From Dehalococcoidia bacterium (GTDB taxonomy: Bacteria; Chloroflexota; Dehalococcoidia; UBA6926), in assembly GCA_045562535.1 (NCBI GenBank), contig JBJKVP010000004.1, positions 2,318 through 66,317 of the forward strand: a DNA stretch of 64,000 bases, in the 5' to 3' direction. Shown piece by piece: positions 5,344 through 64,000 of the stretch. Made by a program: the position numbers and the translations under genes. Each line of letters begins with the position of its first letter. Within the stretch, counting starts at the first letter, position 1. Under the pieces are notes generated by a model. It was not told the origin of the DNA and made no database searches. It saw only the letters and a list, made by a program, of their open reading frames with translations.

Positions 5344-5384
5344 CATAGCGAATCTTTAGCTAATACTGAATTAGGAGGTCAACA

Positions 5385-5798: not shown

Positions 5799-5824
5799 AG
5801 CCCCGAAAACATCGGGGCTTTTTT
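5799..5824 (+). terminator. rho-independent terminator closing the grdC-grdA-redoxin transcription unit
   Basis: AGCCCCGA-AAACA-TCGGGGCT forms an 8-bp GC-rich stem and is followed by a T-run. Confidence 0.7.
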
Positions 5825-5848
5825 AGTGGATAAAAAGGAGATCGAAAA

Positions 5849-9740: not shown

Positions 9741-9743
9741 AGT

Positions 9744-31600: not shown

Positions 31601-32013
31601 CGGCTATCAAATTCATCAATAAAATGAAATGACCCCCTGTACGCAAGTTCCATATTTTGGGTTAATTCACCTTCTCGATCGACAAGAAAAGTGGATGTCC
31701 TTACGTGCCTAACTCGTTGTTCAGAGATCTCACCAATTTTTTGTGAAACCGAACTATTTAAACGGTTGATATCGCTATCATAAGTTCGAGCGTCCATACC
31801 AACAGACTCAAAATTAACTGTAAGATTTAGCGATTCCCTGTCAGCTTTATCTATTGCGAATTCGAGACCCAAATTCCTAAGTGTCTCAGAATATATCGAG
31901 ATGCTTGCAGTTGTAGAAGAAGCTAAGATCGTACCAATCAAAACTGGAATAAATAACGGCGCATAAGCTGCTAATCTACGAATAATCAAATGGAACAATT
32001 GGTTTGTGAACAT
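28660..32013 (-). CDS. giant FtsX-family ABC permease B (1117 aa, two FtsX modules, two large extracytoplasmic domains)
   Basis: An N-terminal TM segment, a ~280-aa loop, a TM cluster (LLMSRGATKRHL... FtsX-like), a second ~400-aa loop, and a C-terminal FtsX module (LLRTMGLTGAQIR...). Confidence 0.75.
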   Translation of the reverse strand: MFTNQLFHLIIRRLAAYAPLFIPVLIGTILASSTTASISIYSETLRNLGLEFAIDKADRESLNLTVNFESVGMDARTYDSDINRLNSSVSQKIGEISEQRVRHVRTSTFLVDREGELTQNMELAYRGSFHFIDEFDSRFELLKGHIPEPRALIASDGSLLVEGVILQSNADFLNIREGDIMVFRPFWEDRADRVHVKVTGIVSEVRSGNTNWEHPSLNRLVGQPTLLNTLPVLVDEVIMVDVLGAIFRDMQGFHFADYRLEVNDITADSSLSTIESIKSLNSGLRTSLSSYRQDTRLVELLSTYDSKLRFLQIPLTVVLLLVTGMVLYAVLFLAMLINRRQRSDGALLMSRGATKRHLLLINSTQAFLIGGISFFAGPFVANVAISSTGYLPFFSGLGRSGALPTNISAESFIYGGIGAFVSFVVLMLPALASEDTNPLEQRVNDVRPATKSFIQRWYIDVVLAVMTFFFIAQLNQQGSLVSDVFAEGNSVNLVLLFVPVLFLVSASLLLLRLIPYVTAIVAKIIIPVSTVWLALGLWQISRNPQNITRLILLLVLASGLGAFSANFGGTLDRSYEERALYSAGTQTRFIGANLAGTGPSIDFKNAIEQVEGVKAASPVLRQEGSFSGGGSPNLRYELLGVDPSQFSKISWWRDDFANNSLEELMSSIEPDLNQSYGLTLPENSDKIGVWIEPVQTSPRSSLVGVMMDGNGRYFSIYFGNLEQEGLHFLETEIKPISRRGWGGRTTQVLQPQAPFTLLSIQIIQRSRSSGMEKGAFYINSINTKSPQSPEWFEVYQFNENTDWNILDLGIMTRSDSLKFVTYDSNSQSQRALFTWGASSGFVQRGIYYGPIEYKIPMLVSPPLLRSLNQDVGDTIILALGTARATGKIVGTVDHFPTLDPVGQGGFIVVNLDDIVRQQNLVGQSDEVQANEIWTVVGDEPLSEGSFIQLTEIAGTNRYISRENLLSQSKADPLVAAGWKTILMVSYLSVLFLGIVGYISHAILIVGERRNQFALLRTMGLTGAQIRLVVWFEHIVVMLIGILAGFFIGQRTGSLLMPFLDRTETGISVQPPFVLEINWEALGLVYSLMVIVFVICTLAVVKIYNKLAIGQALRIGED

Positions 32014-35000: not shown

Positions 35001-35316
35001 AGGATCTTGGCGTTATGGCATAAACTTCGTTACTGATAAATGATTCTTTGAAGGCATTTCTAGCGGTCGCACTGATAATGCCTCGATCTTCCTCGTACGC
35101 ATCTTCGGAAAGTGGAGCAAAGGAAGTCACAACTTGAGGGTGTAAATTGTTCCCCAGCGCACTAAGGGAATTCGCAAAAGCAGCCTTTTCAACAGTATTT
35201 AAATATAGCGGGGCAACACAAAAATATATTGCACCTAAGATGATCGCTAAAGAAGTTATAATAAAAAACGAAAGGCTAGCTCTAACTTGCTTCCAAGGCA
35301 TGAAAGTAGAAATCAA
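32014..35316 (-). CDS. giant FtsX-family ABC permease A (1100 aa, same architecture as permease B)
   Basis: Contains LLRSRGANLRNI and ILKALGLGVVAS FtsX-type segments. Its stop abuts the permease B start. A GAGGGG RBS lies before TTG 35316. Confidence 0.75.
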   Translation of the reverse strand: MISTFMPWKQVRASLSFFIITSLAIILGAIYFCVAPLYLNTVEKAAFANSLSALGNNLHPQVVTSFAPLSEDAYEEDRGIISATARNAFKESFISNEVYAITPRSSAKMLKRPGVDSVAFFQFQSGYDEYITIVSGKLPQYKDADTNDPPGVADQIQVAIGGLAADKLDIAAGDIIEIAAFSGNAPSIITANITAIIEPTDIEEQYWAGQGTEYFDTQLQGDRWLLRLFVSQDTFFRLSADHSLLGTTKDIIYLDNYKLIELGADETQKIVADFSTNLNESFPSGDLFLGIQGNVEKFQQQLTRSSIPLTIVFSLSSIISLYIFFMLGLVLKDVYLNQIILLRSRGANLRNITTNVFASIFIIVILGLILAPIISYSIIKILSVTPVWANSPGLDNITELKILSIYPWVVGGLILSLLFIVFPTLMAMRSKEIIVDSADQYRPKPFWWQKYFIDAWFLILAGIVLFQFLDNKSDVGQRSIDNAQNLSDFENIVLLMPIIVVVVIVFGFYRLFPILASLVAYGISKTNLLSTKLAIDRIARFPADALLLGGLVLLVSSVGAFLASFGGTLEQSQEEAAYFSTGADAKIARPGGFDSMSFSELESVFTTEKSINRATAAYRSVGGIGSIQTGTLVPLLGVDVATIGDTLVTNSVEIGDLNEGINKLAFASSSSVAPRIISKDSSSISLWVKPEYGKGNRFLWLHIMDSEGASYIYSMGSLNFFDWKQLTVDLARGNQPAPPGPYRVKSILIYENAFGSSGSPGSILIDDLTGTTTELETLEIDNFDIAGDWLPVLVTGTRSDSVNGVVDSNRGEVLRFEWGRETAQGLRGIYVTPKFDRVPTLADEQFLSLKGIEVGDITSIYISGRLVPIRIVGNIDKFPTLNPNPVGFLVMDGENLLEHLNVTNIGPYVWPNEVMLRFSEQAETMDLVNYLSDKPKLAGTIIDKSTIMESSDKNPLEAAGWKGAALLAASYTLLLLGLGIGSYLLYIIKKSTREIAILKALGLGVVASNISLSLGYFSTIIVSLPLGLGTGLFLSQILVPRFNNLSIKGASPYYSLSVDLPLLLIFCCAIIASVIVFVVSVLVAQNRLSVATIIRSDNEV

Positions 35317-37679: not shown

Positions 37680-39413
37680 TCATGCGCGGCCAAATTTTTT
37701 ATCAAGATCTAACGTGCTTAAATACATGCTTGTCGGTCGTCCATGAGGACAAACTTTTGGATAGTTAGCACGTTCGAATTGATCTAACAATGCATCCATC
37801 TCAGATATTAATAATTTCTGCCCTGCCCTGATACTACCGTGACAGGCAAGAGATGCGACGATTTGTCTTTCTTGATGGTCAACAAATAATTCAGTCTGTG
37901 ATTCAGTTGTGGGATTTGATAGTTCTTCTCCAGAAAGAAAACCCAAAATTTCCATAAATGCGTTAGTTACCTCAGATTCAACTAAATCAGAAGGTATACC
38001 TCGTAAGACTATTGTTGATCCACCAAAATTGTCCCAGTTAAATCCATAATTAACCAGTAATTCATGATGTTTAGTCAAAGTCTCGAATTGTATTGAATCC
38101 AAGGTAACGTTAAGAGGATTAAGCAAACCTTGTACCAAGAGCTCTCCTTTATCTCTAGATGCGAGAATATTCTCAAAAACAATGCGCTCATGAGTGGCGT
38201 GCTGATCAAAAAGGTAGATCCCATCATCACTTTTTGCCACAATATATTTTGTATCTAGTTGACCAATAGATTCGAAACGGCTGGTTGAAACAACAATTGG
38301 ATCTTGAGCGGAGTTAGAAGAAGGAGCGAAATAACGGTTTTCTAATAAGCGTGGCTGTTCAGGGATCAACTCGCCAGATAAGGGCTGGTAATCTTGTTTT
38401 AAAGGTCTCTCATAGGTAGAGTCAACATCCGACGCCAACATACCATTTATGCTTTTCTGAACAATAGAAAATATTTCCTGTTCTTTTCTAAACCGAACTT
38501 GGGCCTTCGTAGGGTGGACGTTAACATCAATTTGATTTGGTTTAACGCTGAGAAAAAGAAACACAAATGGGTAGCGGCCTTTTAGCATATATTCTCTGTA
38601 ACAATCAGCGATTGCATAAGAAATTGCCTGGCTTTCAATCAATCTATTATTAACAAATAAGACCTGTCCGTCCTTTCGTCCTCTATTCAAGTTAGGCGGG
38701 GACGCAAACCCATGCAGAGTAACATCACCCAAGGTTACAAAATCTATTTCTAGCATCTGTTTTGCAATATCTATGCCCCAAACAGTTGCTATTACGTCTT
38801 GAAATCTTCCATCTCCAGGAGTAGATAAAATCATATTACCGTCCCGAAATAGCTTAAATGACACTTCTGGATGCGCGATTGCATATTGTCCAACAAGTGT
38901 TGTACAACGACGAGCTTCGGATGCTGCAGACTTCATAAACGACAACCTAGCTGGAACATTCTGAAACAAATTTTCGACGGATATGGATGTACCAATTTTC
39001 GAACCTTGATATCCAGATTCAATGAGTTTTCCACTATGCGCAACAATGTAACTTGCTCTAGTTACATCCGGTTCCCTTGAAACCAAAATAATATTGGAAA
39101 TAGAACTAATTGAAGCTAAAGCTTCGCCACGAAACCCAAAGCTATTAATATCTTCTAAGTCTTCTACTGACATTATCTTTGACGTTGCATGTCTCGTTAA
39201 TGCTAGGTCTAACTCACCGTTTGGTATACCATTCCCATCATCTGTAACCCTTATGAGTTCAAACCCACCTTTCTCTATTTCAATTTCTAAGGTGGTTGCA
39301 TTAGCATCTAACGCATTTTCAATAAGCTCTTTTACAACAGACACAGGTCGTTCAATAACTTCTCCTGCAGCTATTTTGGTTGAGACCAATTCATCCAATA
39401 CCTTTATAGACAC
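37680..39413 (-). CDS. mutL: DNA mismatch repair protein MutL
   Basis: N-terminal GHKL ATPase motifs IAAGEVIERP, ELIENALDA, DDGNGI and GFRGEAL. The C-terminal dimerisation domain carries the endonuclease-type DQHA(T)HER motif. Confidence 0.9.
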   Translation of the reverse strand: MSIKVLDELVSTKIAAGEVIERPVSVVKELIENALDANATTLEIEIEKGGFELIRVTDDGNGIPNGELDLALTRHATSKIMSVEDLEDINSFGFRGEALASISSISNIILVSREPDVTRASYIVAHSGKLIESGYQGSKIGTSISVENLFQNVPARLSFMKSAASEARRCTTLVGQYAIAHPEVSFKLFRDGNMILSTPGDGRFQDVIATVWGIDIAKQMLEIDFVTLGDVTLHGFASPPNLNRGRKDGQVLFVNNRLIESQAISYAIADCYREYMLKGRYPFVFLFLSVKPNQIDVNVHPTKAQVRFRKEQEIFSIVQKSINGMLASDVDSTYERPLKQDYQPLSGELIPEQPRLLENRYFAPSSNSAQDPIVVSTSRFESIGQLDTKYIVAKSDDGIYLFDQHATHERIVFENILASRDKGELLVQGLLNPLNVTLDSIQFETLTKHHELLVNYGFNWDNFGGSTIVLRGIPSDLVESEVTNAFMEILGFLSGEELSNPTTESQTELFVDHQERQIVASLACHGSIRAGQKLLISEMDALLDQFERANYPKVCPHGRPTSMYLSTLDLDKKFGRA

Positions 39414-39472: not shown

Positions 39473-42133
39473 TCAATCGATGCTATCAATAGCTAATTTA
39501 ATTTCATTTAGAAAATTTAGAGCTTGCAGAGGAGTCATCTCTTCAGTAACAACCTTAGAGATTAAATCTAGCGCTTTACGCTCTCCTGTTGATAAATCTT
39601 TATCTACTTTAAATAACGAAGGCTGGTAAGAAGAAGATCCTAGGTCTTCTACAACTGAACGCCCTTCTAATATTTTTAACAACTCTTGCCCTCTTTCAAC
39701 AACCGTCTTTGGTATGCCTGCGATTTGAGCAACATGTAACCCGTACGATCTATTGATACCACCTTCTACTATGCTATGAAGAAATATTATTTTACCGTTT
39801 TCTTCAGATACAGAGACATGTGAATTGCTGGCTCCATCCATCAAATCAACGATAGGTATCAATTCATGATAGTGAGTAGCGAATAGAGTGCGTGACTTTA
39901 GTTCGTCCGCGTTATGTATATGCTCGATTACTGCCCAGGCAATCGATAATCCATCATAGGTACTAGTTCCTCTACCTATTTCATCAAGGATGATTAGTGA
40001 ATTAGGTGTTGCATGGTGCAGTATATATGCCGTTTCTATCATCTCCACCATAAACGTTGATCGTCCTTGAGATATATCGTCTTGAAGACCTGCCCTAGTA
40101 AACACTCGGTCAATAATCCCCATAGTTAACTTTTGTGCTGGGACCCAAGATCCGATCTGAGCCATAATCGCAATAATCGCCACCTGTCGCAGGTATGTAG
40201 ATTTTCCAGACATGTTAGGGCCTGTGACCACGCTTATGGGAATTTGTTCTGATAAAGAAGTATCATTGGGAACAAAACTAGACGAAGTAAATTGTTCCAC
40301 TACCGGATGTCTACCAAACTCCATTTTCAGTTCCTTTTTATCAACAAACGACGCCGGCTTATAGTTATTTAAAGAAGCACTTTCAGCAAAACTAGATATC
40401 ACATCCAATTTCCCAATCGCAGCACTAGTCTTAAGTATTTCATAAGACTCAGCGTTTATTGTTTCCAACAACTCTGAAAATAATTGGTACTCCATTCTTT
40501 CAATTTCTTCTCGAACTTGATTCAATTCCTCTTCAATTTCCTTTAACAAAGGAATAAAGTATCGCTCGCCATTAGCTATGGTCTGCTTCCTAATGTAATT
40601 ATCAGGTACTTTCGAAAGATTAGATTTTGTTACCTCTATGAAATACCCAAACACCCTTGAATGCCCTATTTTTAAACTATTTATTTGGGTTCTATCTCTT
40701 TCCTCTTTTTCGATTTTTAATATTGATTCAACATATTCTTCAGCTCGTTCACGCAAAATATCCAATTCATTAGAAAATCCCCAGTCAATAAGTTGGCCTT
40801 CTCCAATTTTCATCGGAGGATCTTCCACTATCGCATGTTCCAATGTCTGTATGAGATCGCTGTAATCAAGGACGGCATCTGAATTCCATTCATTAACAGT
40901 GCCCATGACGGTGTTTATATCAAGGTCTTCATCATCACCAAACGCCATTTCTTTGGATAGCCTTCTGATAGATATTAAACTCCTATGTATAGCTAATAAA
41001 TCTCTCGGTGTTGCGATCTTCGCCGCTACCCTATTTGTCAGTCTCTCTAAATCAGCAACATTACCAAGTTCTGATCTTATTGTCGCTCTATGCATAAACG
41101 AAGTATAAAACCATTGAACCATTCGACTTCTGCTGTCAATATCATCTTTTTTTAATAAAGGATGACCCAGCCAATTTCTCAATAAACGCGACCCCATAGG
41201 AGTTTTAGTGATATCTAGAAGTTCTAGGAGTGACCCTTTTTTATTGCCAGTACCAATGCCTTGAAATAACTCCAAAGTTTTTACAGTTTGAGAATCCAAT
41301 ATCATTGTATTTTCAAAAGAAATAGTACTTAATGAGCGAATTTGGTTCACAAAAATGCTTTGGGTTTCTTGTAAATATAAAACGATAGACCCAGCTGCTA
41401 TAGTCGCTAAATCCATACTTTCGCAGCCATAAGGTTGCAAATCACGCACGCTAAAATGCTCAATGAGTGCCGCTCTCGCTATTCGTAAGTCATACCAACG
41501 ATCTGATACAACACTCAGCTTATCATCAAAACCATCAATGCTAATTTGCAGAGGATCTGGATCTGCCACAATAATTTCAGCAGGATTCAAACGATTAAGC
41601 TCTCCAGGCAAATCAGTTATATCAAGTTCTAGAGTTTTGAATTCTGATGTGGATATATCTATATACGCCAAACCCACCCTGTTTGCTTGTACAGCAAGTG
41701 ACACTAAAAAATTATTTGACCTACCTGGTAAAAGATCTTCTTCCAAAATAGTGCCCGGGGTTACTATACGAACAATTTCCCGATTAATGAGTGTGCCGGG
41801 TTTTGTGTCTGATTCCATTTGCTCGCAAATAGCAACCTTATGGCCTTTATCCAAGAGTTTACTGATGCTGCTATTTAAAGTACTGACCGGAATACCAGCC
41901 AACGGAACTCTATCTGCTTTCCCTAACTCTTTTGAAGTGAGTGTTATATCTAAATCTCGTGACAACAAAACGGCATCGTCATCAAAAGTTTCGTAGAAAT
42001 CTCCAAGTCTAAACAGCAATATTCCGTCAGGAAATTTAGCTTTTATATTCTCATATTGTTGGCGAAGCGGAGAACGAGATTGTAAACCTTTAGTTCCATC
42101 TCTAAGATCTTCTTTATCTGTTTTACGTGCCAT
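39473..42133 (-). CDS. mutS: DNA mismatch repair protein MutS
   Basis: 886 aa with N-terminal GDFYETF mismatch-binding motif, Walker A GPNMSGKST, DEIGRGTSTYDG, and THYHEL. Confidence 0.9.
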   Translation of the reverse strand: MARKTDKEDLRDGTKGLQSRSPLRQQYENIKAKFPDGILLFRLGDFYETFDDDAVLLSRDLDITLTSKELGKADRVPLAGIPVSTLNSSISKLLDKGHKVAICEQMESDTKPGTLINREIVRIVTPGTILEEDLLPGRSNNFLVSLAVQANRVGLAYIDISTSEFKTLELDITDLPGELNRLNPAEIIVADPDPLQISIDGFDDKLSVVSDRWYDLRIARAALIEHFSVRDLQPYGCESMDLATIAAGSIVLYLQETQSIFVNQIRSLSTISFENTMILDSQTVKTLELFQGIGTGNKKGSLLELLDITKTPMGSRLLRNWLGHPLLKKDDIDSRSRMVQWFYTSFMHRATIRSELGNVADLERLTNRVAAKIATPRDLLAIHRSLISIRRLSKEMAFGDDEDLDINTVMGTVNEWNSDAVLDYSDLIQTLEHAIVEDPPMKIGEGQLIDWGFSNELDILRERAEEYVESILKIEKEERDRTQINSLKIGHSRVFGYFIEVTKSNLSKVPDNYIRKQTIANGERYFIPLLKEIEEELNQVREEIERMEYQLFSELLETINAESYEILKTSAAIGKLDVISSFAESASLNNYKPASFVDKKELKMEFGRHPVVEQFTSSSFVPNDTSLSEQIPISVVTGPNMSGKSTYLRQVAIIAIMAQIGSWVPAQKLTMGIIDRVFTRAGLQDDISQGRSTFMVEMIETAYILHHATPNSLIILDEIGRGTSTYDGLSIAWAVIEHIHNADELKSRTLFATHYHELIPIVDLMDGASNSHVSVSEENGKIIFLHSIVEGGINRSYGLHVAQIAGIPKTVVERGQELLKILEGRSVVEDLGSSSYQPSLFKVDKDLSTGERKALDLISKVVTEEMTPLQALNFLNEIKLAIDSID

Positions 42134-56806: not shown

Positions 56807-56989
56807 TTATAAGAGTAAACGTGCCAAAATAACTAATAGAAGGAATAATATATTTGTTAACACAAAAAATAATTTTGACGTTATAGGAACACTTGCATCA
56901 GCTTTAGTTGAAAAACCTACGCGGAAAATAAATAGATTTAGCAAGAAAAAGAACAGGATTCCCAAAATGAAACCTAGCAAACCATCCAT
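56807..56989 (-). CDS. possible small two-TM membrane protein
   Basis: A 60-aa hydrophobic ORF supported by no other evidence. Confidence 0.25.
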   Translation of the reverse strand: MDGLLGFILGILFFFLLNLFIFRVGFSTKADASVPITSKLFFVLTNILFLLLVILARLLL

Positions 56990-57103: not shown

Positions 57104-60100
57104 TTATATTTTCAATCTACTCAAAGCTGCTAAAGCTTGAGGAGAAAGCGTATTATCCAGTAAGGTCTGCGCGGCAGTTTCTAGATCTTTAGCTTTAGAT
57201 TCAAAGTCTGGTTTCTCTACAATCTTCTCTGGATCTGGCCATTCAACCTCTGATGTTGTTGATTCAGTTGTATCGCTACCTTCAGCAGGCTTCAATTTAA
57301 GGAAACTAGCTCCCGTAGATTTCAAGATCTCAGACTTTTTCTCAGAATCAAGTTGGCCTATCTGATCGCCTTTCATAACATCCATCATGTTACCAAGTTT
57401 GGCCGTGCCCACCTCTTGAATTGTAGTTACATCAACTCCTTTGACCATGACTTCCACTCGATCTGACCCAAGCGTACCCATACCTTCACTTGGAAGTTCT
57501 TTAGTGATTGCCTCTAATGCCCCTTTTCCTACACCCTGCAAATCGGTTGGATTCATCGTGACTGCCATATCTTTAACTCTAGTTGAGCCAAGTTCACTAT
57601 ATTGTTCAGAGCCCATTGTTTTCGCCATATCAGCTACTTTGGAACCACCTAGGTCTGTAAATTCTTTCAATTCCATATTTTTAGTCATATCAGCGACTTT
57701 AGCACCACCTAAATTCTGCAAGTTAGCGGCATCCATAGTTTTGGTCATATCAACGAGTTTCGCACCACCAAGATTTTGGAAGTTGGACGCGTCCATGGTT
57801 TTCGTCATATCAACGAGTTTAGATCCACCGAGATCTTGGAATTGAGCAGCTCCCATATTCTTCGTCAAATCAGAAAGTTTTGCTCCTCCGAGATTCTGGA
57901 AGTTTGTTGCATCCATCGTCTTCGTCATGTCGAGAAGTTTCGCTCCACCAAGATTCTCAAAGTTCGAAGCATCCATCGTCTTTGTCATATCAACAAGCTT
58001 CGCTCCACCAAGGTCTTGGAATTGCGCAGCTCCCATATTCTTCGTCAAATCAGAAAGTTTTGCTCCTCCGAGATTCTGGAAGTTTGTTGCATCCATCGTC
58101 TTCGTCATGTCGAGAAGTTTCGCTCCACCGAGATTCTGGAAGTTCGAAGCATCCATTGTCTTTGTCATGTCGACTAGTTTCGCTCCACCGAGATCTTGGA
58201 ATTGAGCAGCTCCCATGTTCTTCGTCATATCGGAAAGTTTTGCTCCACCAAGATTTACAAAGTTCGTCGCATCCATCGTCTTTGTCATATCGAGCAGTTT
58301 CGCTCCACCGAGATCTTGGAATTGCGCAGCTCCCATGTTCTTCGTCAAATCAGAAAGTTTTGCTCCTCCGAGATTCTGGAAGTTTGTTGCATCCATCGTC
58401 TTCGTCATGTCGAGAAGTTTCGCTCCACCGAGATTCTCAAAGTTCGAAGCATCCATTGTCTTTGTCATATCAACAAGCTTCGCTCCACCGAGATCCGCAA
58501 ATTGGGCTGCTCCCATATTCTTTGTCATATCGGAAAGTTTTGCTCCACCAAGGTTCACAAAGTTCGCTGCATCCATTGTCTTTGTCATGTCGAGCAGTTT
58601 CGCTCCACCAAGATCTTGGAACTGAGCAGCTCCCATGTTCTTCGTCAAGTCAGAAAGTTTTGCTCCACCAAGATTCTGGAAGTTCGAAGCATCCATTGTC
58701 TTTGTCATGTCGAGCAGTTTCGCTCCACCGAGATTCTGGAAGTTCGAAGCATCCATTGTCTTTGTCATATCAACGAGTTTCGCTCCGCCGAGATCCAGGA
58801 ATTGAGCAGCTCCCATATTCATTGTCATATCGGCGAGTTTCGATCCACCAAGATTCGCGTATTCGGCTGGGCCCATATTTTTGTGCATCTCAGCCAGTTT
58901 CGCTCCACCGAGATTCTGGAAGTTCGAAGCATCCATTGTCTTTGTCATATCAACAAGCTTCGCTCCACCGAGATCTGCAAATTGAGCAGCTCCCATATTC
59001 CTTGTCATGTCGGCAAGCTTCGCCCCGCCAAGATTTACAAAGTTCGCTGCATCCATTGTCTTCGTCATATCAACGAGTTTTGCAGCTCCAAGATCTGCAA
59101 ACTGGGCAAAGCCCATGTTCTTCGTCATGTCGGCAAGTTTTGCTCCACCGAGAGTCTCAAATTGAGCAGCTCCCATGTTCTTCGTCATGTCAGCAAGCTT
59201 CGCTCCACCAAGATTCTCGAATTGGGCTGCTCCCATGTTTTTCGTCATATCAGCGAGTTTTGCTCCGCCAAGAGACTCAAATTGGGCAGCGCCCATACTC
59301 TTCGTCATATCAGCAAGTTTCGCTCCACCGAGATTCTGGAAGTTCGTTGCATCCATCGTCCTAGTCATATCCGCTAGTCTTGCGGCACCCAAAGATTCGA
59401 AATTAGTAGCGTCCATTGTCTTGGTCATATCAACGAGTTTCGCTCCGCCAAGATCTTGGAATTGCGCTAGGGCCATTGTTTTAGTCATGTCGGCAACTTT
59501 AGATCCGCCTAGATCGTTAAATTGAGTAAAAGCCATATTCTTGCTCATGTCAGCAAGCTTCGCTCCACCGAGATTCGCGTATTGGGCTGCGCCCATACTT
59601 TTGTGCATCTCAGCGAGTTTCGCTCCACCGAGATCCGCAAATTGAGCAGCTCCCATGTTCTTTGTCATATCGGCAAGCTTCGCTCCACCGAGATTCTCGA
59701 ATTGGGCAGCTCCCATATTTTTGGTCATATCAGCAAGCTTCGCTCCACCGAGATTCTCGAATTGGGCAGCTCCCATATTCCTCGTCATATCTGCAAGCTT
59801 CGCTCCACCGAGATCCGCAAATTGAGCAGCTCCCATGTTCTTTGTCATATCTGCAAGCTTCGCTCCACCGAGATTCTCGAATTGGGCTGCGCCCATATTC
59901 CTCGTCATATCTGCAAGCTTCGCTCCACCGAGACTCTGGAATTGGGCAGCTCCCATGTTCTTTGTCATATCGGCAAGCTTCGCTCCACCAAGAGACTCGA
60001 ACTGCGCAGCTCCCATATTTTTGGTCATGTCAGCAAGCTTCGCTCCACCGAGATTTTCGAATTGGGCTGCGCCCATATTCCTCGTCATATCTGCAAGCTT

Positions 60101-61855
60101 CGCTCCACCGAGACTCTCAAATTGGGCAGCTCCCATGTTCTTTGTCATATCGGCAAGCTTCGCTCCACCAAGATCTTGGAATTGAGCAGCACCCATATTC
60201 TTTGTCATATCAGCAAGTTTTGCCCCACCAAGATTCTGGAATTGCGCTGCACCCATATTCTTTGTCATATCGGCAAGCTTCGCTCCACCGAGATCCGCAA
60301 ATTGAGCAGCTCCCATGTTCTTCGTCATATCTGCAAGCTTCGCTCCACCCATATCTTTGAAGCCATCAGCGTTCATGTTCTTGGCCATGCCAGCTACTCC
60401 GGTAGCACCCATATCTTTGAAGCCATCAGCGTTCATATTCTTGGCCATACCGGCTACTCCGGCAGCTCCCATATCTTTGAAGCCATCAGCGTTCATATTC
60501 TTGGCCATGCCGGCTACTCTGGCAGCTCCCATATCTTTGAAGCCATCAGCGTTCATGTTTTTGGCCATGCCAGCTACTCCCGCAGCTCCCATGTCTTTGA
60601 AACCATCGGCATTCATGTTCTTGGCCATGCCGGCTACTCCCGCAGCTCCCATGTCTTTGAAACCATCGGCATTCATGTTCTTGGCCATGCCAGCTACTCC
60701 CGCAGCTCCCATGTCTTTGAAACCATCGGCATTCATATTCTTGGCCATGCCAGCTACTCCGGTAGCACCCATATCTTTGAAGCCATCAGCATTCATATTC
60801 TTGGCCATGCCGGCTACTCCGGTAGCACCCATATCTTTGAAACCATCGGCATTCATATTCTTGGCCATGCCGGCTACTCCCGCAGCTCCCATGTCTTTGA
60901 AACCATCGGCATTCATATTCTTGGCCATGCCAGCGACTCCCGCAGCTCCCATGTCTTTGAAACCATCGGCGTTCATATTCTTGGCCATATCTCTTACTTT
61001 ATCTGTACCCATATCTTTGAAACCAGCAGCATTCATGTTCTGAGCTAATTTTGCGGTTTCAGTACTTCCTAATTTATTGAAATCAGCTACTTTGGCTTGA
61101 TTAAGCGAATCGATTGCTTTTTGCGGATCTATTGGCCCTTTTGGGGCTCCCACTGGTGATGTACCTGTCTTTGCTCCTGGTGCAACTCCTGATGTAGCTC
61201 CTGTACCAGTTCCTCCTGGAGTCGCAGGCCCTTTGGGACCCGTAGCCCCTGTACCAGTTCCTCCTGGAGTCGCAGGCCCTTTGGGACCCGTAGCCCCTGT
61301 ACCAGTTCCTCCTGGAGTCGCAGGCCCTTTGGGACCCGTAGCTCCTGTACCAGTTCCTCCTGGAGTCGCAGGCCCTTTGGGACCCGTAGCTCCTGTACCA
61401 GTTCCTCCTGGAGTTGCAGGCCCTTTGGGACCCGTAGCCCCTGGACCAGTATGTCCTGTAGGTGAACTAGGCGAACTCGGGCTCGCTCCGGGTGATGCCG
61501 GAGAAGGAGAAGATGGCGCAGGTGATGGTGATGATGGCGCAGGTGATGGTGACGATGGCGCAGGTGATGGTGATGATGGCGCAGGTGATGGTGATGATGG
61601 CGCAGGTGTTGGCGCAGGTGTTGGCGCAGGTGTTGGCGCAGGTGTTGGCGCAGGTGCTGGTGATGGTGATGGTGATGGTGATGGTGATGGTGATGGCGAC
61701 GCCATTGGTCCTGGAGAACCATGTGGACCACCATGGGAAGCAAAAGCTGGGGTTATAGGTGCGAAAAGCATAATGAGAGTTATTAATATAGATACAACCA
61801 TATTAAGACGTCGACCATATTTATTGTTTACAAAACTATTATCTATTCCCCGCAT
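57104..61855 (-). CDS. giant secreted repeat protein (1583 aa): signal peptide, P/S/T linker, 5 x 16-aa Gly/Pro/Thr repeats, ~58 x 20-aa Met-rich repeats, ~200-aa unique tail
   Basis: ATG 61853-61855. Signal MVVSILITLIMLFAPITPAFA/SHG. Repeat classes are GAAGVAGMAKNMNADGFKDM (about 12 copies) and GGAKLADMTKNMGAAQFxxL (about 46 copies). One uninterrupted frame runs across 3.5 kb of 60-bp repeats, whereas the antisense ORFs are low-complexity. Confidence 0.8.
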   Translation of the reverse strand: MRGIDNSFVNNKYGRRLNMVVSILITLIMLFAPITPAFASHGGPHGSPGPMASPSPSPSPSPSPSPAPAPTPAPTPAPTPAPTPAPSSPSPAPSSPSPAPSSPSPAPSSPSPAPSSPSPASPGASPSSPSSPTGHTGPGATGPKGPATPGGTGTGATGPKGPATPGGTGTGATGPKGPATPGGTGTGATGPKGPATPGGTGTGATGPKGPATPGGTGTGATSGVAPGAKTGTSPVGAPKGPIDPQKAIDSLNQAKVADFNKLGSTETAKLAQNMNAAGFKDMGTDKVRDMAKNMNADGFKDMGAAGVAGMAKNMNADGFKDMGAAGVAGMAKNMNADGFKDMGATGVAGMAKNMNADGFKDMGATGVAGMAKNMNADGFKDMGAAGVAGMAKNMNADGFKDMGAAGVAGMAKNMNADGFKDMGAAGVAGMAKNMNADGFKDMGAARVAGMAKNMNADGFKDMGAAGVAGMAKNMNADGFKDMGATGVAGMAKNMNADGFKDMGGAKLADMTKNMGAAQFADLGGAKLADMTKNMGAAQFQNLGGAKLADMTKNMGAAQFQDLGGAKLADMTKNMGAAQFESLGGAKLADMTRNMGAAQFENLGGAKLADMTKNMGAAQFESLGGAKLADMTKNMGAAQFQSLGGAKLADMTRNMGAAQFENLGGAKLADMTKNMGAAQFADLGGAKLADMTRNMGAAQFENLGGAKLADMTKNMGAAQFENLGGAKLADMTKNMGAAQFADLGGAKLAEMHKSMGAAQYANLGGAKLADMSKNMAFTQFNDLGGSKVADMTKTMALAQFQDLGGAKLVDMTKTMDATNFESLGAARLADMTRTMDATNFQNLGGAKLADMTKSMGAAQFESLGGAKLADMTKNMGAAQFENLGGAKLADMTKNMGAAQFETLGGAKLADMTKNMGFAQFADLGAAKLVDMTKTMDAANFVNLGGAKLADMTRNMGAAQFADLGGAKLVDMTKTMDASNFQNLGGAKLAEMHKNMGPAEYANLGGSKLADMTMNMGAAQFLDLGGAKLVDMTKTMDASNFQNLGGAKLLDMTKTMDASNFQNLGGAKLSDLTKNMGAAQFQDLGGAKLLDMTKTMDAANFVNLGGAKLSDMTKNMGAAQFADLGGAKLVDMTKTMDASNFENLGGAKLLDMTKTMDATNFQNLGGAKLSDLTKNMGAAQFQDLGGAKLLDMTKTMDATNFVNLGGAKLSDMTKNMGAAQFQDLGGAKLVDMTKTMDASNFQNLGGAKLLDMTKTMDATNFQNLGGAKLSDLTKNMGAAQFQDLGGAKLVDMTKTMDASNFENLGGAKLLDMTKTMDATNFQNLGGAKLSDLTKNMGAAQFQDLGGSKLVDMTKTMDASNFQNLGGAKLVDMTKTMDAANLQNLGGAKVADMTKNMELKEFTDLGGSKVADMAKTMGSEQYSELGSTRVKDMAVTMNPTDLQGVGKGALEAITKELPSEGMGTLGSDRVEVMVKGVDVTTIQEVGTAKLGNMMDVMKGDQIGQLDSEKKSEILKSTGASFLKLKPAEGSDTTESTTSEVEWPDPEKIVEKPDFESKAKDLETAAQTLLDNTLSPQALAALSRLKI
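57590..61050 (-). repeat. 60-bp tandem repeat array (about 58 units; type B 57590-60348, type A 60349-61050)
   Basis: A 60-nt periodicity is directly visible. Blocks of over 100 nt recur nearly identically at offsets of 180 and 300 nt (for example 57841, 58021, 58321). Confidence 0.95.
61203..61442 (-). repeat. 48-bp tandem repeat, 5 copies (encodes GATGPKGPATPGGTGT)
   Basis: The unit gtaccagttcctcctggagtcgcaggccctttgggacccgtagcccct repeats head-to-tail with 1-2 substitutions. Confidence 0.95.
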
Positions 61856-62643
61856 TGGAACGCTCCTAACAATCTGTTAAATCTAAGCTGAGCTGTTGTA
61901 GCATCAGCACCTGTTGCTGTTAAAGTAAATCCTCTATCTAAAGAACCAGAAGTATCTGATGGAGCGCAAACCCAGACTCCCATCAAACCTCCAGTCAAAG
62001 TACCTTCAGCATCTTTAATCGAAAAAGAAGCATACTTTCCTTCAATTTTATTATCTTCTGAATCTGAATTAACTTCTATGGGGCCATCATTTATCGCGGA
62101 AAATTCCACTGTTGGTTGGCTAGCTGTTAATACAGAGTATGATGAGTTTAATAGTTCATCTGCATTATCTGTCCAAGGTCTCCAGTAAAGTTGAACAGAA
62201 ACACCGTTATAGTCGAAAATCACTATACCCGAATCATTCTCTGCGTCGTTTTTCAACCACCCATAAGTTTCAATATCCGTACTTTCGACCCCTTGAAGAA
62301 CTCCCTTTTTCAGAACGAAAAACCCTTCATAAAGTTCCGGTTCTTTAGGCTCAGGTGCAGGAGGTGCCTCTGGCTTAGGTTCTTCTTTCTTGGGTTCTGG
62401 TTTAGGTTCTTCTTTTTTAGGCTCCTCTGCCTTAGGTTCTGGTTTAGGTTCTTCTTTTTTAGGCTCCTCTGCCTTTTGGGCAGGTGCCTCTGTAGATGCC
62501 GTAGAGGTCGTTTCCGAAGATGTTTCCTGCTGGGCAGTTGGAGTCGATTCCCCTCCTCCACAAGCTACAAACAAAAAGGTAGCGGAAGCAACTAGAAAAC
62601 TAACTGCAAATAAGCGGAAGGAAAAGGCGTTTACAAATTTCAA
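61843..62643 (-). CDS. lipoprotein with an (E/K/P)-rich repeat linker and a ~170-aa C-terminal globular domain
   Basis: The likely start is TTG 62641-62643, 8 nt after AAGGAG. Signal plus lipobox MKFVNAFSFRLFAVSFLVASATFLFVAC. AEEPKKEEPKPEPK repeats. The stop overlaps the giant gene start by 13 nt. Confidence 0.7.
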   Translation of the reverse strand: MKFVNAFSFRLFAVSFLVASATFLFVACGGGESTPTAQQETSSETTSTASTEAPAQKAEEPKKEEPKPEPKAEEPKKEEPKPEPKKEEPKPEAPPAPEPKEPELYEGFFVLKKGVLQGVESTDIETYGWLKNDAENDSGIVIFDYNGVSVQLYWRPWTDNADELLNSSYSVLTASQPTVEFSAINDGPIEVNSDSEDNKIEGKYASFSIKDAEGTLTGGLMGVWVCAPSDTSGSLDRGFTLTATGADATTAQLRFNRLLGAFQCGE

Positions 62644-62818: not shown

Positions 62819-63307
62819 TTATTCCAATACTTGTATCGAATGAGCCCTCGGTTCACCTTCTTGAAGAAGCCCAGAAACAGAGATTCTCGTACCGACATTT
62901 AAATCCTCAATTCGAATTCGAACAGGTTTATTGATCTTAGTGTCTTGGTTGATATCTATTTCTAATTCTCCTCTTGCGGTCTCGAGTTTCAGCGAGGTGC
63001 GATCTATTTCCTTTATTGTTCCGATCACAGCTTGTCTGTTCATACTTTGCTCATTGCGAAACTCTGAATTTCTCAAATTTTGCAAATCTTCCCTTGTTAG
63101 TTCTCCGGATTGTATTTTTTCCCTAATTGAAGCCATATCGTTATTTGAAACCGGCATCCGACTCGCTTCAGATGAAACATCTGGAGTCATCTGGGTACTG
63201 ACGGGCTCAACTCCAACAGCACTTCTTCCTAGAGCAAAAGATCCTCCCACGGAGACCCCGTATATAGCAATTAGTACTAGCAAAAAAACAAATCTATTTC
63301 TCTCCAT
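62819..63307 (-). CDS. membrane-anchored/secreted protein with a C-terminal small beta-barrel-like domain
   Basis: N-terminal TM/signal FVFLLVLIAIYGVSVGG. The C-terminus GTIKEIDRTSLKLETARGELEIDINQDTKI...DLNVGTRISVSG resembles domains often found beside MacB-type exporters in monoderms. Confidence 0.5.
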   Translation of the reverse strand: MERNRFVFLLVLIAIYGVSVGGSFALGRSAVGVEPVSTQMTPDVSSEASRMPVSNNDMASIREKIQSGELTREDLQNLRNSEFRNEQSMNRQAVIGTIKEIDRTSLKLETARGELEIDINQDTKINKPVRIRIEDLNVGTRISVSGLLQEGEPRAHSIQVLE

Positions 63308-63330
63308 TGTTCACTCCTCTAGCAACTTAT

Positions 63331-64000
63331 CTATTCATATCTCAAAGCATCAATAGGATTAAGCTTTGCCGCTCGAGCAGCAGGATAAATGCCGAAAAAT
63401 AGTCCGATAACTCCTGCAACTGTTAATGCTAGTATGGCAATATCCGCGGTTATTACAGTTTCAAAATCTGGGCCAAAAAGACGTAACCTATTTATCGAAT
63501 AAGATATAAGAGCTCCCAAAGATGCTCCAATAACTCCGCCACTTACGCTAATTAGGACGGCCTCAGTAATAAATTGCCCCAAGATATCTCTTTTTTTTGC
63601 CCCCAATGCTTTCCTAATACCAATTTCTCTTGTGCGCTCCGTAACAGAAACTAACATTATATTCATTATCCCAATTCCGCCCACAAACAAGGATATACCA
63701 GCAATAGATCCCAACAAGACGACTAAAGCCGCTGTCGCTTCATTCAAGGTGTTAATAACATCTTGTAAATTAGTAACGGAAAAATCATCTTCAGTCGTAC
63801 GATGACTAAATCTAAGTATGTCTGAAATTTGCTCTTTTGGATCTTCAACGGTTTTATCTACCAAATCACCATTTGAAATAGATTGAACATTTATCGTCGA
63901 GATTGAAATTTCACCTTGGGTAGTCCTCTCTGAAGTTAATCTATAATAGGCTGTCGTCAGAGGCACAAAGATCTGGCCGTCTTCAGAGCCAAATCTTGCT
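63331..64000 (-). CDS. MacB-type ABC permease, C-terminal part (FtsX domain; 5' end outside the window)
   Basis: Motifs TERTREIGIRKALGAKKRDI, LISVSGGVIG, and a C-terminal PIDALRYE. The frame stays open to the window edge. Confidence 0.8.
   Translation of the reverse strand, partial: ARFGSEDGQIFVPLTTAYYRLTSERTTQGEISISTINVQSISNGDLVDKTVEDPKEQISDILRFSHRTTEDDFSVTNLQDVINTLNEATAALVVLLGSIAGISLFVGGIGIMNIMLVSVTERTREIGIRKALGAKKRDILGQFITEAVLISVSGGVIGASLGALISYSINRLRLFGPDFETVITADIAILALTVAGVIGLFFGIYPAARAAKLNPIDALRYE

What the first reader, a model, noticed from the sequence alone, without database searches (positions are those of the whole stretch)
57104..61855. Giant secreted protein built from ~58 tandem copies of a 20-residue repeat I cannot assign to any family
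The protein has five parts. A signal peptide comes first, followed by a (PS)n/(PAPT)n/(SSPSPAP)n linker. Next are five copies of GATGPKGPATPGGTGT. The core is about 12 copies of GAAGVAGMAKNMNADGFKDM and about 46 copies of GGAKLADMTKNMGAAQFxxL, then degenerating repeats and a ~200-aa unique acidic tail. Both repeat classes align in register to G-x-x-x-(L/V)-A-x-M-x-K-x-M-x-A-x-x-F-x-x-(L/M). Hydrophobic positions fall at 5, 8, 12, 17 and 20, with a Gly-Gly break. This suggests a helix-turn (alpha-solenoid or fibre) unit rather than LRR, pentapeptide, collagen, RTX or cadherin-type repeats. If extended, 58 units would form a very long surface filament. This is my best candidate for an undescribed surface, adhesion or S-layer-like component.
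Basis: partly seen in the sequence, partly recalled or inferred. Interest (0 to 1): 0.7.

Follow-up and report, generated by a model that had tools for sequence, protein, structure and literature searches.

The report
Giant helical-repeat surface protein, lipoprotein partner
A marine Dehalococcoidia (SAR202-type) bacterium encodes a 1583-residue secreted protein made of 62 tandem 20-residue helix-turn-helix units from an undescribed repeat family, always paired with a membrane lipoprotein, making the pair a candidate for the unidentified outer protein layer of these wall-less ocean bacteria.

Summary
ORF 57104-61855 (minus strand) encodes a signal peptide, a Pro/Ser/Thr/Gly stalk, 62 units of exactly 20 residues with no indel, and an 81-aa acidic tail.

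It is not an assembly artefact. 60 of 62 DNA units differ, pN/pS between units is 0.04-0.26, and independent assemblies reproduce both ends and the middle.

No Pfam, NCBIfam or PDB family matches. AlphaFold2 (pLDDT 94) predicts two short helices per unit, and Foldseek finds only generic alpha-solenoids.

Homologues with the same unit occur only in marine Chloroflexota MAGs, and a more distant acidic subfamily also exists.

New finding: the gene immediately upstream encodes a lipoprotein whose globular domain has a DUF1795/LpqN/PsbP-like binding fold. It sits directly upstream of the repeat gene in every one of seven loci where that side could be read.

Best reading (inferred): a rod-like surface protein held at the membrane by its lipoprotein partner, forming part of the coat of a monoderm bacterium that lacks peptidoglycan. 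Function and 3-D geometry are untested.

This is a new repeat family of a known kind (alpha-solenoid surface protein).

The parts
57104..61855 (-). Complete CDS of the giant repeat protein (1583 aa; mature about 156 kDa, pI 6.2, no Cys)
   Evidence: RBS AGGAG 7 nt upstream of the ATG; the same MRGI... start is conserved in orthologues L024, L028 and L033
61739..61855 (-). Sec-type signal peptide, residues 1-39 (n-region KYGRR, hydrophobic core, AFA|S cleavage motif)
   Evidence: read from the sequence; conserved in orthologues, including ...PITPAFA|GHGGPHG in L029. No signal-peptide predictor was available.
61442..61738 (-). SHGGPHG motif followed by the Pro/Ser/Thr/Ala low-complexity stalk, residues 40-138: (SP)7, (PAPT)4, (SSPSPAP)n
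   Evidence: TRF periods of 6/12/21 nt
61202..61441 (-). Five exact copies of the 16-residue GATGPKGPATPGGTGT repeat, residues 139-218
   Evidence: (48-nt period, 97% matches); not repetitive in orthologues L024, L028 and L033
61070..61201 (-). Gly/Pro-rich end of the stalk plus the N-terminal cap of the array, residues 219-262 (...DPQKAIDSLNQAKVADFNKL)
60950..61069 (-). Two lead units, residues 263-302. They carry the family-wide first-unit signature [LI]AQN[ML][ND]xxGF[KQ]D[LM]G
   Evidence: the same motif is read by eye at the start of the arrays of the acidic relatives
60350..60949 (-). Class A block: 10 units of GA(A/T)GVAGMAKNMNADGFKDM, residues 303-502
   Evidence: pN/pS 0.04; identical peptides differ by 1-8 synonymous nt; absent from the start of orthologue L033's array
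57590..60349 (-). Class B block: 46 units, GGAKLADMTKNMGAAQFxxL and the GGAKL(V/L)DMTKTMDA(S/T/A)NFxNL subtype, residues 503-1422
   Evidence: independently assembled in L001 (100% identical over 941 aa) and L033
57350..57589 (-). Four degenerate terminal units (C-cap region), residues 1423-1502
   Evidence: conserved in L007, L008 and P0004
57107..57349 (-). Non-repetitive acidic tail, residues 1503-1583 (...EVEWPDPEKIVEKPDFE...ALAALSRLKI)
   Evidence: orthologous fragments P0001, P0003 and P0004 at 97/75/56% identity
61843..62643 (-). Conserved partner gene: a 266-aa lipoprotein with TTG start, AAGGAG RBS, lipobox LFVAC, a PEPK-rich linker and a C-terminal 2-Cys alpha/beta domain. Its stop overlaps the giant gene's ATG by 13 nt.
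   Evidence: homologous ORF immediately upstream of 20-aa-repeat genes in L019, L020/L021, L022, L029, L030 and L031/L032
61852..62244 (-). Globular domain of the partner (residues about 154-284 of the 286-aa ORF). Predicted DUF1795/LpqN/PsbP-like fold.
   Evidence: AF2 pLDDT 86.5, pTM 0.84. Foldseek: SciW E 1e-5 with TM 0.6-0.7, Apa, LpqN, PsbP
62819..63307 (-). 162-aa secreted or membrane-anchored protein lying between the MacB permease and the partner. Conserved in this position in the giant subfamily (159 aa and 176 aa in orthologues).
63331..64000 (-). 3' part of a MacB/FtsX-type ABC permease (it runs off the window). It is the last gene of a YknX-like MFP - ABC ATPase - MacB operon upstream of the cassette.

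Best explanation
The gene encodes a Sec-exported surface protein of about 156 kDa. The host is a marine Dehalococcoidia bacterium of SAR202 type, monoderm and lacking peptidoglycan.

Behind a cleavable signal peptide comes an extended stalk of about 220 residues rich in Pro, Ser, Thr and Gly. Then 62 tandem 20-residue units follow, each folding into two short helices joined by Gly-containing turns. The units stack through a core made of L5, M8, M12, F17 and L20, giving an elongated alpha-solenoid rod tens of nanometres long.

The protein has no membrane or wall anchor of its own. It is encoded directly after, and overlapping, a lipoprotein gene. That lipoprotein carries a long flexible linker and a DUF1795/LpqN/PsbP-like binding domain. 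The most likely mechanism is that the lipid-anchored partner binds the rod, probably at a capping or terminal unit, and so tethers or chaperones it at the cell surface. There the rod would contribute to the proteinaceous coat or spacer layer that replaces a cell wall.

Shown: the sequence architecture, purifying selection on the units, family distribution, conserved gene pairing, and the predicted folds.

Inferred: export, rod geometry and length, partner binding, and the envelope role.
For: Architecture and periodicity.

Real, selected coding repeats:
- 60/62 DNA units are distinct and identical peptides differ synonymously.
- pN/pS is 0.04 (class A) and 0.26 (class B).
- The longest exact DNA repeat is 104 nt.

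Independent assemblies:
- L001 covers the C-terminal 941 aa at 100% identity, and L002 328 aa at 99.4%.
- L014 covers the N-terminus.
- L033, from a population about 88% identical, covers 1046 aa from the start, in the same register and with the same ordered distinctive units.

Helical hairpin unit:
- AF2 pLDDT 94.3, pTM 0.87.
- Hydrophobic spacing is i, i+3, i+7 and i, i+3.
- The same 20-aa pattern is kept in the diverged acidic relatives.

No known family.

Family: homologues with the same unit occur in Dehalococcoidia/Chloroflexota MAGs. The unit profile separates true relatives (E 1e-6 to 1e-238) from LRR and other periodic hits (E >= 0.28).

Partner:
- BLASTP E 2e-21, and 35-36% identity to ORFs directly upstream of repeat genes in divergent loci.
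- All copies are lipoproteins with long linkers.
- The family has 63 members and no Pfam domain.
- Fold.

Host envelope: SAR202 isolates are monoderm, encode no peptidoglycan synthesis, and show an S-layer-like outer layer in TEM (PMC10444878; PMC10284905).
Against: - There are no expression, localisation or binding data.
- AF2 is documented to be over-confident on near-perfect repeats (PMC11795689). One of the five models had pLDDT 37. The alignment supplied was made of the protein's own segments.
- No coordinates could be analysed, so rise, curvature and length are estimates.
- No full-length gene was found in a second assembly; every short-read contig breaks inside it. The exact unit count therefore rests on this window.
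- The partner's nearest structural relatives include chaperones and lipid- or ligand-binding proteins, so tethering is only one possible role.
- The MacB operon is conserved only within the giant subfamily.
Confidence: 0.5

Rival explanations
1. Adhesin stalk. The array is only a passive spacer that projects the C-terminal acidic tail, or the rod's surface, towards particles, polymers or other cells, as in giant Gram-positive and RTX adhesins.
For: The general plan is signal peptide, stalk, long repeat rod and a distinct terminal segment. The relative P0069/P0151 carries extracellular Ig-like domains (Flg_new_2, He_PIG) after its repeat region. Unit number varies between populations, as is common in adhesins.
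Against: The tail is only 81 aa and matches no recognisable binding domain. It is not conserved between the window lineage and L009/L010. Surface positions of the units are under very strong purifying selection (pN/pS 0.04-0.26), which a passive spacer would not need.
Confidence: 0.15
2. Metal or oxidant sink. The Met-rich array (10.6% Met, with an M-x3-M motif in every unit), together with the conserved His motif right after the signal peptide, would bind Cu(I)/Cu(II) or scavenge reactive oxygen at the cell surface.
For: Met content and MTKNM motifs. Conserved SHGGPHG / GHGGPHG / DGHDGG / DDHGDDGG directly after the predicted cleavage site in both subfamilies. Extremely Met/Asp/His-rich relatives such as P0065. 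One acidic cassette lies about 4 kb downstream of a cytochrome c oxidase/cupredoxin operon.
Against: Positions 8 and 12 exchange freely with L/I/V/F in the acidic subfamily and follow helical core spacing, so they behave as core residues and not ligands. The array has no His or Cys. The proximity to the oxidase operon was seen in one lineage only.
Confidence: 0.08
3. Not a stable solenoid. It would be an intrinsically disordered or amphipathic (LEA- or apolipoprotein-like) polymer that becomes helical only on binding membranes or hydrophobic material.
For: Ala+Gly make up 30% of the array. There are weak LEA_5 matches. AF2 over-confidence on repeats is documented, and one AF2 model collapsed to pLDDT 37.
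Against: Four of five AF2 models agree at pLDDT 93-94 on the most diverged stretch. Hydrophobic positions and the Gly boundary are strictly conserved across subfamilies with otherwise different composition. The strong purifying selection also covers polar positions.
Confidence: 0.07
4. A degenerate leucine-rich repeat (beta/alpha solenoid) of the short bacterial 20-22-residue type.
For: Many LRR proteins appear among the weak HMMER hits (P0006, P0009, P0025 and others). A profile of the array hits an internalin at a whole-sequence E of 5.8e-4. There is local similarity of the form L-x-x-x-x-(L/I)-x-D-(M/I)-(T/S).
Against: No Pfam LRR model matches at E <= 10. The individual internalin stretches have E 1.8-4.7 and need a 2-residue gap in every unit. 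The LxL...N hallmark is missing, with Gly-Gly in its place. AF2 predicts no strand at all. In the unit-profile test the LRR proteins score E >= 0.28 or are not reported at E <= 10.
Confidence: 0.03
5. Assembly artefact or non-coding tandem repeat.
For: Every short-read assembly examined breaks inside the gene, and no second full-length copy was found.
Against: 60/62 units are distinct at DNA level and differ mostly at synonymous sites, and the longest exact repeat is 104 nt. Both ends and the middle are reproduced in other assemblies, with overlapping distinctive units. Orthologues in other lineages keep the frame for at least 960 aa.
Confidence: 0.02

Closest known systems
Alpha-solenoid repeat proteins (ARM/HEAT type, e.g. 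importin-alpha, PP2A A subunit; designed helical repeat proteins)
   Same: Tandem helix-turn-helix units are predicted to stack into an elongated solenoid. These are the only kinds of structure Foldseek returns.
   Different: The unit is 20 residues (helices of about 9 and 7), against about 37-47 for HEAT/ARM (my own knowledge). TM-scores are only 0.13-0.40 and no hit has E <= 1e-3. There is no sequence-profile match. This protein is extracellular with 62 units, whereas those are cytosolic scaffolds.
Leucine-rich repeat variant (LRV, 24-residue alpha/3-10 helical repeat of Azotobacter; recalled from memory, not tested against its structure)
   Same: A very short, all-helical repeat unit with a Leu/Met-rich core forming a superhelix.
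   Different: 24 against 20 residues. No Pfam LRV hit. Not among the top 50 Foldseek matches shown. The LRV protein is a small intracellular protein.
Pfam PF20080 'ALTTAQ repeat'
   Same: Degenerate units of distant relatives give weak, sub-threshold matches: P0010 23.7 bits, P0096 16.1 bits, the terminal units of L010 15.2 bits.
   Different: The gathering score is 26.4 and is never reached. The window's own units give no match even at E <= 10. No literature on that family was found.
Giant helical-bundle rod proteins of Gram-positive surfaces (Ebh/Embp of staphylococci)
   Same: Very large secreted surface proteins built from many tandem alpha-helical modules that form an elongated rod (PMC7587433 abstract).
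   Different: Embp uses large F and FG repeat modules, each characterised by two alpha-helical bundles, and is a cell-surface-localised protein of a walled bacterium. Here the unit is a 20-aa hairpin, there is no wall-anchoring motif, and a separate lipoprotein partner is encoded alongside.
Two-component or stalked archaeal surface layers (Sulfolobus SlaA/SlaB; Staphylothermus tetrabrachion; my own knowledge)
   Same: In wall-less cells these have a membrane-anchored stalk protein plus a large secreted protein, or a long alpha-helical stalk, forming the outer protein layer. The host here also lacks peptidoglycan and shows an S-layer-like layer.
   Different: There is no sequence or fold relationship. 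Lattice formation is untested here. The anchor is a lipoprotein with a DUF1795/LpqN-like domain, not a coiled-coil transmembrane stalk.
For the partner: Eag/DUF1795 chaperones (SciW) and mycobacterial LpqN/Apa/PsbP-like proteins
   Same: Same predicted alpha/beta fold (Foldseek E 1e-5 to 2e-3, TM up to 0.71). Eag proteins clamp helical segments of a cognate protein encoded next to them (PMC7773334 abstract). LpqN is an envelope lipoprotein.
   Different: Sequence identity is 8-13% and no Pfam match exists. The partner is extracytoplasmic and lipid-anchored with a long linker, there is no T6SS, and a conserved Cys pair is present.

Membership tests
Pfam PF20080 ALTTAQ repeat | hmmscan score at or above the curated gathering score (26.4 bits) | tested here: not met
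   No match for the whole protein or for core-unit segments at E <= 10. The best scores among relatives are 23.7 bits (P0010), with 0 passing stretches, and 15.2 bits (L010 end).
Leucine-rich repeat (LRR) | LxxLxLxxN(x)L core motif forming a beta-strand, and a match to an LRR profile | tested here: not met
   The motif is absent; G-G occupies the place of LxL. No Pfam LRR hit. AF2 predicts no strands. The internalin stretches have E 1.8-4.7 and need gaps in every unit.
HEAT / ARM alpha-solenoids | Repeat of about 37-47 residues matching HEAT/ARM profiles; specific structural superposition | tested here: not met
   The period is exactly 20. No profile hit. Foldseek TMq is at most 0.40 and E at least 5e-3. 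Only the general solenoid class is shared.
   Autocorrelation is 0.007 at lag 10 and 0.72 at lag 20. No Pfam hits. The prediction is all-helical.
Canonical bacterial S-layer proteins | SLH or another known S-layer anchoring or lattice domain | tested here: not met
   No such Pfam or NCBIfam domain.
Canonical bacterial S-layer proteins | Self-assembly into a 2-D lattice that covers the cell | not testable with these tools
   This needs cryo-ET or in-vitro assembly. There is only contextual support: the host type shows an S-layer-like layer (PMC10444878).
Sortase-anchored (LPXTG) surface proteins | C-terminal LPXTG motif, hydrophobic segment and basic tail | tested here: not met
   The C-terminus reads ...LSPQALAALSRLKI, with no LPXTG and no hydrophobic segment.
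Sec-secreted proteins | N-terminal basic n-region, hydrophobic h-region and an AxA cleavage motif | tested here: met
   KYGRR-LNMVVSILITLIMLFAPITP-AFA|S, read from the sequence. Conserved in orthologues. No dedicated predictor was available.
Bacterial lipoproteins (the partner) | Signal peptide ending in a lipobox [LVI][ASTVI][GAS]C | tested here: met
   LFVAC (window, P0161, P0159), LALAAC (L030, L031) and LALTAC (L029). Read from the sequence.
DUF1795 / Eag - LpqN - PsbP-like fold (the partner domain) | Structural superposition on family members | tested here: met
   Foldseek: SciW E 1.3e-5, TMt 0.68-0.71, rmsd about 3 A; Apa 5.5e-4; LpqN 1.6e-3; PsbP 9e-3. The query model has pLDDT 86.5.
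DUF1795 / Eag - LpqN - PsbP-like fold (the partner domain) | Sequence-profile membership (Pfam) | tested here: not met
   No relevant Pfam family for the window protein; only a sub-threshold PARP match on the linker. No precomputed Pfam domain in the domain region for any of the 63 family members. The PDB profile search gives E >= 0.6.

The most novel reading that the evidence does not exclude
The lipoprotein and the 20-residue-repeat rod together form a previously unrecognised two-component envelope system. It would build the S-layer-like outer layer of peptidoglycan-less marine Dehalococcoidia (SAR202). The lipid-anchored partner acts as the stalk and the alpha-solenoid rod as the canopy or fibre. 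The rod uses one of the shortest helical-hairpin solenoid units seen in nature.
Probability: 0.2. Interest if true: 0.8.

Novelty: new variant of a known kind. Interest (0 to 1): 0.6.

Why it matters
SAR202 and related Dehalococcoidia are among the most abundant bacteria of the dark ocean. The cultured SAR202 strains are monoderm, encode no peptidoglycan synthesis, and show an outer layer in TEM (PMC10444878). I found no description of what that layer is made of.

This work provides:
- A conserved, lineage-specific cassette (lipoprotein plus secreted repeat rod) as a concrete, testable candidate for part of that envelope.
- An uncurated repeat family whose 20-residue two-helix unit is unusually short and regular, which may interest structural biologists and repeat-protein designers.
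- A natural example of a 62-unit array kept nearly identical at protein level but scrambled at synonymous sites.

Every short-read assembly examined breaks inside this gene. Such proteins are therefore systematically under-represented in MAG-based catalogues.

Tried and rejected
1. A word-indexed homologue search with residues 243-1583 returned nothing. The exhaustive HMMER search replaced it.
2. Most of the 161 exhaustive-search hits are unrelated proteins with periods of about 20-23 residues (LRR-Roc-COR, phage-fibre-like, eukaryotic low complexity). By inspection and by the unit-profile test they are periodicity or composition matches.
3. The Pfam Tn916-Xis hit (E 1.5e-13) is a summed score with no passing stretch. 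LEA_5, DNA_pol3_finger, 3-methyladenine glycosylase, SAM_3 and Cdd1 are all far below their cut-offs. I considered a helix-hairpin-helix reading because several of these are HhH-type. I dropped it because the Gly hairpin is about 3 residues shorter than the hxxhxGhGxxxAxxh consensus.
4. ALTTAQ repeat membership: not met. No literature was found.
5. Exact look-ups of the giant protein, with both possible starts, found no record. This is explained by contigs breaking inside the gene.
6. A first self-alignment of overlapping segments (A1) was unusable because MAFFT slid them onto each other. It was replaced by non-overlapping segments (A2, A3).
7. A Tat signal was considered because of the RR pair. 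It is not conserved in L029, so Sec is preferred.
8. Foreign origin was considered because GC is 48-51% against about 39% for the window. It was rejected because the locus is syntenic across populations and lineages. The excess comes from Ala/Gly codons plus even use of synonymous codons.
9. The promoter and terminator scans gave fewer sites than shuffled controls and were not used.
Full report
**1. Observation.**
The window contains an open reading frame at 57104-61855 on the minus strand that encodes 1583 residues. An AGGAG Shine-Dalgarno sequence lies 7 nt upstream of the ATG. Tandem Repeats Finder reports periods of 60, 120, 180 and 300 nt across 57673-61041 and a 48-nt period at 61194-61450.

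Cutting the protein into 20-residue rows shows one uninterrupted register from residue 263 to 1502, which is 62 units with no insertion or deletion. Residue identity autocorrelation is 0.72 at lag 20 and 0.07-0.08 at lags 19 and 21.

The layout by residue is:
- Signal peptide, 1-39 (AFA|S).
- SHGGPHG and a (SP)n/(PAPT)n/(SSPSPAP)n stalk, 40-138.
- Five exact GATGPKGPATPGGTGT copies, 139-218.
- A Gly/Pro stretch and N-cap, 219-262.
- Two lead units, ten class-A units, 46 class-B units and four degenerate units, 263-1502.
- An 81-residue acidic tail, 1503-1583.

The only correction is that the unique tail is about 80 residues, not about 200.

The consensus unit is G-G-A-K-L-A-D-M-T-K-N-M-G-A-A-Q-F-x-(D/N)-L. 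G1 is invariant and M12, M8, F17, K10 and A14 are nearly so. The array is 16.7% Ala, 13.9% Gly and 10.6% Met, with no Cys or Trp.

**2. Is it real?**
At DNA level 60 of the 62 units are distinct. Units that encode the same peptide differ by 1-11 synonymous substitutions; the one exception is a set of three identical 60-mers. The longest exactly repeated stretch is 104 nt. Between units, pS is 0.40-0.61 while pN is 0.014-0.16, giving pN/pS of 0.04 for class A and 0.26 for class B. That is the signature of an old array under strong purifying selection on the peptide, not of a collapsed or inflated assembly.

Independent assemblies carry the same locus:
- An NCBI MAG contig (L001) holds the C-terminal 941 residues at 100% identity. 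Another sample (L002) holds 328 residues with two substitutions.
- L014 holds the first 131 residues.
- A JGI contig from a population about 88% identical (L033) holds 1046 residues from the start codon. It has the same signal peptide, stalk, cap and at least 38 units in the same register. It also contains the same ordered run of distinctive units found at window residues 743-933.

In L033, 29 class-B units precede that run. The window has 2 lead, 10 class-A and 12 class-B units there. Unit number and type therefore vary between populations in whole-unit steps.

Every short-read contig examined ends inside the gene, including contigs of 144-364 kb. No second full-length copy exists in the collections searched, so the exact count of 62 rests on this window.

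**3. Known families.**
Pfam-A and NCBIfam give no match that passes a per-domain threshold, whether on the whole protein or on short segments of each repeat class, the caps, the tail or the stalk. The Tn916-Xis hit at E 1.5e-13 is a sum over many sub-threshold stretches.

PDB sequence searches give nothing with the protein itself. A profile of the array gives only an internalin LRR at a whole-sequence E of 5.8e-4, and its individual stretches have E 1.8-4.7 and need a gap in every unit.

The only recurrent lead is Pfam PF20080 (ALTTAQ repeat). It scores 15-24 bits on degenerate units of distant relatives, against a cut-off of 26.4, and it does not match the window's own units at all. No paper mentions that family.

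**4. Structure.**
I ran AlphaFold2 on residues 743-982, the most diverged part of the array, using an alignment of five non-overlapping segments of the protein. The result was pLDDT 94.3 and pTM 0.87, with four of five models at 93-94 and one at 37. Every unit forms a helix at about positions 2-10 and a second at about 14-20.

This agrees with what the sequence shows directly:
- Conserved hydrophobic residues at 5, 8 and 12 (i, i+3, i+7) and at 17 and 20 (i, i+3).
- Gly at the unit boundary.

Foldseek against the PDB finds no match with E <= 1e-3. The best matches are designed helical repeats, importin-alpha ARM and PP2A HEAT, at TM 0.13-0.40. The class (alpha-solenoid) is therefore known, but no specific relative is.

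There is a caveat. AF2 is documented to give confident but unrealistic models for near-perfect repeats, mainly beta-solenoids (PMC11795689). I treat helicity as well supported and the 3-D geometry as provisional. A length of roughly 60 nm for 62 units assumes about 1 nm per two-helix unit, which is my own estimate.

**5. Relatives and host.**
The exhaustive HMMER search of 1.84 billion representatives gave 161 hits at E <= 1e-3. Most are unrelated proteins with periods of about 20-23 residues. A local two-unit profile separates the true relatives cleanly:
- L010, L009 and L007: E 1e-89 to 1e-238.
- Short metagenomic fragments P0026 and P0027.
- An acidic subfamily (P0032, P0053, P0069, P0010 and the L031 gene): E 1e-6 to 1e-10.
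- LRR and other periodic hits: E >= 0.28, or not reported at E <= 10.

A scan of one genome per species found the tail and terminal units in four MAGs, all Dehalococcoidia or Chloroflexota: PW3.metabat2.168, UBA6926, NAT190 and a TARA bin. Their translations show the same 20-residue unit, for example GGAKLADMTKNMDANNFQAL, running for at least 960 residues up to the contig edge.

Named cluster members are all 'hypothetical protein' from Chloroflexota MAGs. One member of the partner family is from a 'SAR202 cluster bacterium'.

The rest of the window is ordinary chromosome: MutS and MutL, a DnaE2/Y-family polymerase pair, NuoE/F-like genes, and CoA-transferase and enoyl-CoA hydratase genes.

**6. 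A conserved partner.**
The gene immediately upstream is at 61843-62643, with a TTG start and an AAGGAG RBS. Its stop overlaps the giant gene's ATG by 13 nt. It encodes a 266-residue lipoprotein with lipobox LFVAC, a PEPK-rich linker of about 100 residues, and a globular domain of about 130 residues with two conserved cysteines.

A homologue of this domain (35-36% identity, BLASTP E 2e-21) lies directly upstream of the repeat gene in the acidic relatives P0010, P0032 and P0151. A profile search found 63 family members, none with a Pfam domain. In each of the three additional lineages sampled, the lipoprotein is again followed by a gene of this kind:
- 55% identity (L029): a gene with the same conserved signal peptide and HGGPHG motif, cut by the contig end 73 residues in, before any repeat.
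- 42% identity (L030): a secreted protein with a signal peptide, a low-complexity linker and units I read by eye as degenerate 20-residue units. This protein did not score in the unit-profile test.
- 31% identity (L031/L032): a secreted protein whose 20-residue units score E 2e-8 in that test.

AF2 with a 49-sequence alignment folds the domain at pLDDT 86.5. Foldseek matches:
- The T6SS Eag chaperone SciW (DUF1795): E 1e-5, TM up to 0.71.
- M. tuberculosis Apa and the lipoprotein LpqN.
- PsbP.

These are accessory modules that bind helical segments, proteins or lipids. Eag chaperones clamp the transmembrane helices of their cognate effectors (PMC7773334 abstract).

Upstream of the pair, a YknX-like MFP - ABC ATPase - MacB permease operon and a small secreted protein are conserved within the giant subfamily. 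They are absent from the acidic subfamily.

**7. Mechanism.**
Cultured SAR202 strains are monoderm, encode no peptidoglycan synthesis and show a layer outside the membrane that resembles an S-layer (PMC10444878). Peptidoglycan was lost before the marine radiation of Dehalococcoidia (PMC10284905).

A secreted 156-kDa protein with no anchor of its own would be lost from such a cell unless something holds it. It has no LPXTG, SLH or C-terminal transmembrane segment.

The conserved, translationally overlapping lipoprotein has a long linker and a binding-type domain, and it is the obvious candidate. I therefore propose that the lipoprotein tethers or chaperones the alpha-solenoid rod at the cell surface, where the rod forms part of the protein coat.

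The very low pN/pS extends to polar, presumably exposed positions (D7, T9, K10, N11). This suggests that the rod's surface makes repeated contacts, with itself, with the partner or with a periodic ligand, and argues against a role as an inert spacer (inference).

The rivals are an adhesin stalk, a metal or oxidant sink, a disordered amphipathic polymer, an LRR, and an artefact. They are weighed in the rival-explanations section of this report.

**8. Verdict.**
It is a new, lineage-restricted repeat family of a known structural kind, now with a conserved partner and a testable envelope hypothesis. Function is inferred, not shown.

Noticed in passing
window 57350-61069 (the array) compared with neighbouring genes: GC3 of the array is 0.46, against 0.24-0.34 in neighbouring genes. 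Synonymous codons are used almost evenly (Lys AAA/AAG 51/49 against 75/25 elsewhere). Together with pS of 0.4-0.6 between units, this looks like natural 'codon scrambling' of a repeat array, perhaps limiting recombinational loss. It remains unexplained.
   Followed up: partly
window about 56807-56989 (-), some 115 nt downstream of the giant gene's stop: A 60-aa, very hydrophobic ORF with two predicted membrane segments (MDGLLGFILGILFFFLLNLF...). It is called as a gene in the same position in independent contigs L001, L003 and L004.
   Followed up: partly
window residues 40-46 of the giant protein (61718-61738); L019, L029, L030, L031: A His-containing motif directly follows the predicted signal-peptide cleavage site in both subfamilies: SHGGPHG, GHGGPHG, DGHDGG and DDHGDDGG. 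Some would give an X-X-His (ATCUN-like) mature N-terminus, which hints at possible metal binding.
   Followed up: no
window 60950-61069 and 60350-60949; relatives P0010, P0032, P0053, P0069, P0027: By eye, the first unit of every array in both subfamilies carries the signature [LI]AQN[ML][ND]xxGF[KQ]D[LM]G. The window's class-A block looks like an amplification of this first-unit type. The close orthologue L033 lacks it, while L007 has a similar block near its C-terminus.
   Followed up: partly
window 62819-64000 (-) and loci L011, L012, L023-L029: A YknX-like membrane-fusion protein, an ABC ATPase, a MacB/FtsX permease and a 159-176-aa secreted protein precede the lipoprotein-giant pair. They are conserved down to 55% partner identity but are absent from the acidic subfamily. 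Any role in handling the lipoprotein or the rod is unknown.
   Followed up: partly
window 28660-35316 (-): Two tandem genes of 1117 and 1100 aa whose only recognisable domain is a C-terminal FtsX permease domain. They would be unusually large MacB/FtsX-type proteins with about 950 unassigned residues each.
   Followed up: no
window 6627-11137 (-): A DnaE2-like Pol III alpha (PHP, polymerase, finger, HhH and OB domains) sits next to a Y-family (IMS) polymerase-like gene. This is the arrangement of an ImuB-DnaE2 damage-inducible mutagenesis cassette. MutS (39473-42133) and MutL (37680-39413) lie further along.
   Followed up: no
L031/L032 positions 1-6108: In one acidic-subfamily lineage the lipoprotein-repeat cassette lies about 4 kb downstream of a complete cytochrome c oxidase operon (CtaA, CtaB, COX2, COX1, COX3 and a COX4-cupredoxin fusion). 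This may be coincidental.
   Followed up: no
L019 9195-10004 and 10001-12802; P0026: The gene for relative P0010 is split by a frameshift in a 3.7x-coverage long-read contig: the signal peptide and linker are in one ORF and the repeats in the next. Database fragment P0026 ends in ...IGRASCRERV, which I recognise from my own knowledge as a read-through of Illumina adapter sequence. Both are data-quality issues in public protein catalogues.
   Followed up: no
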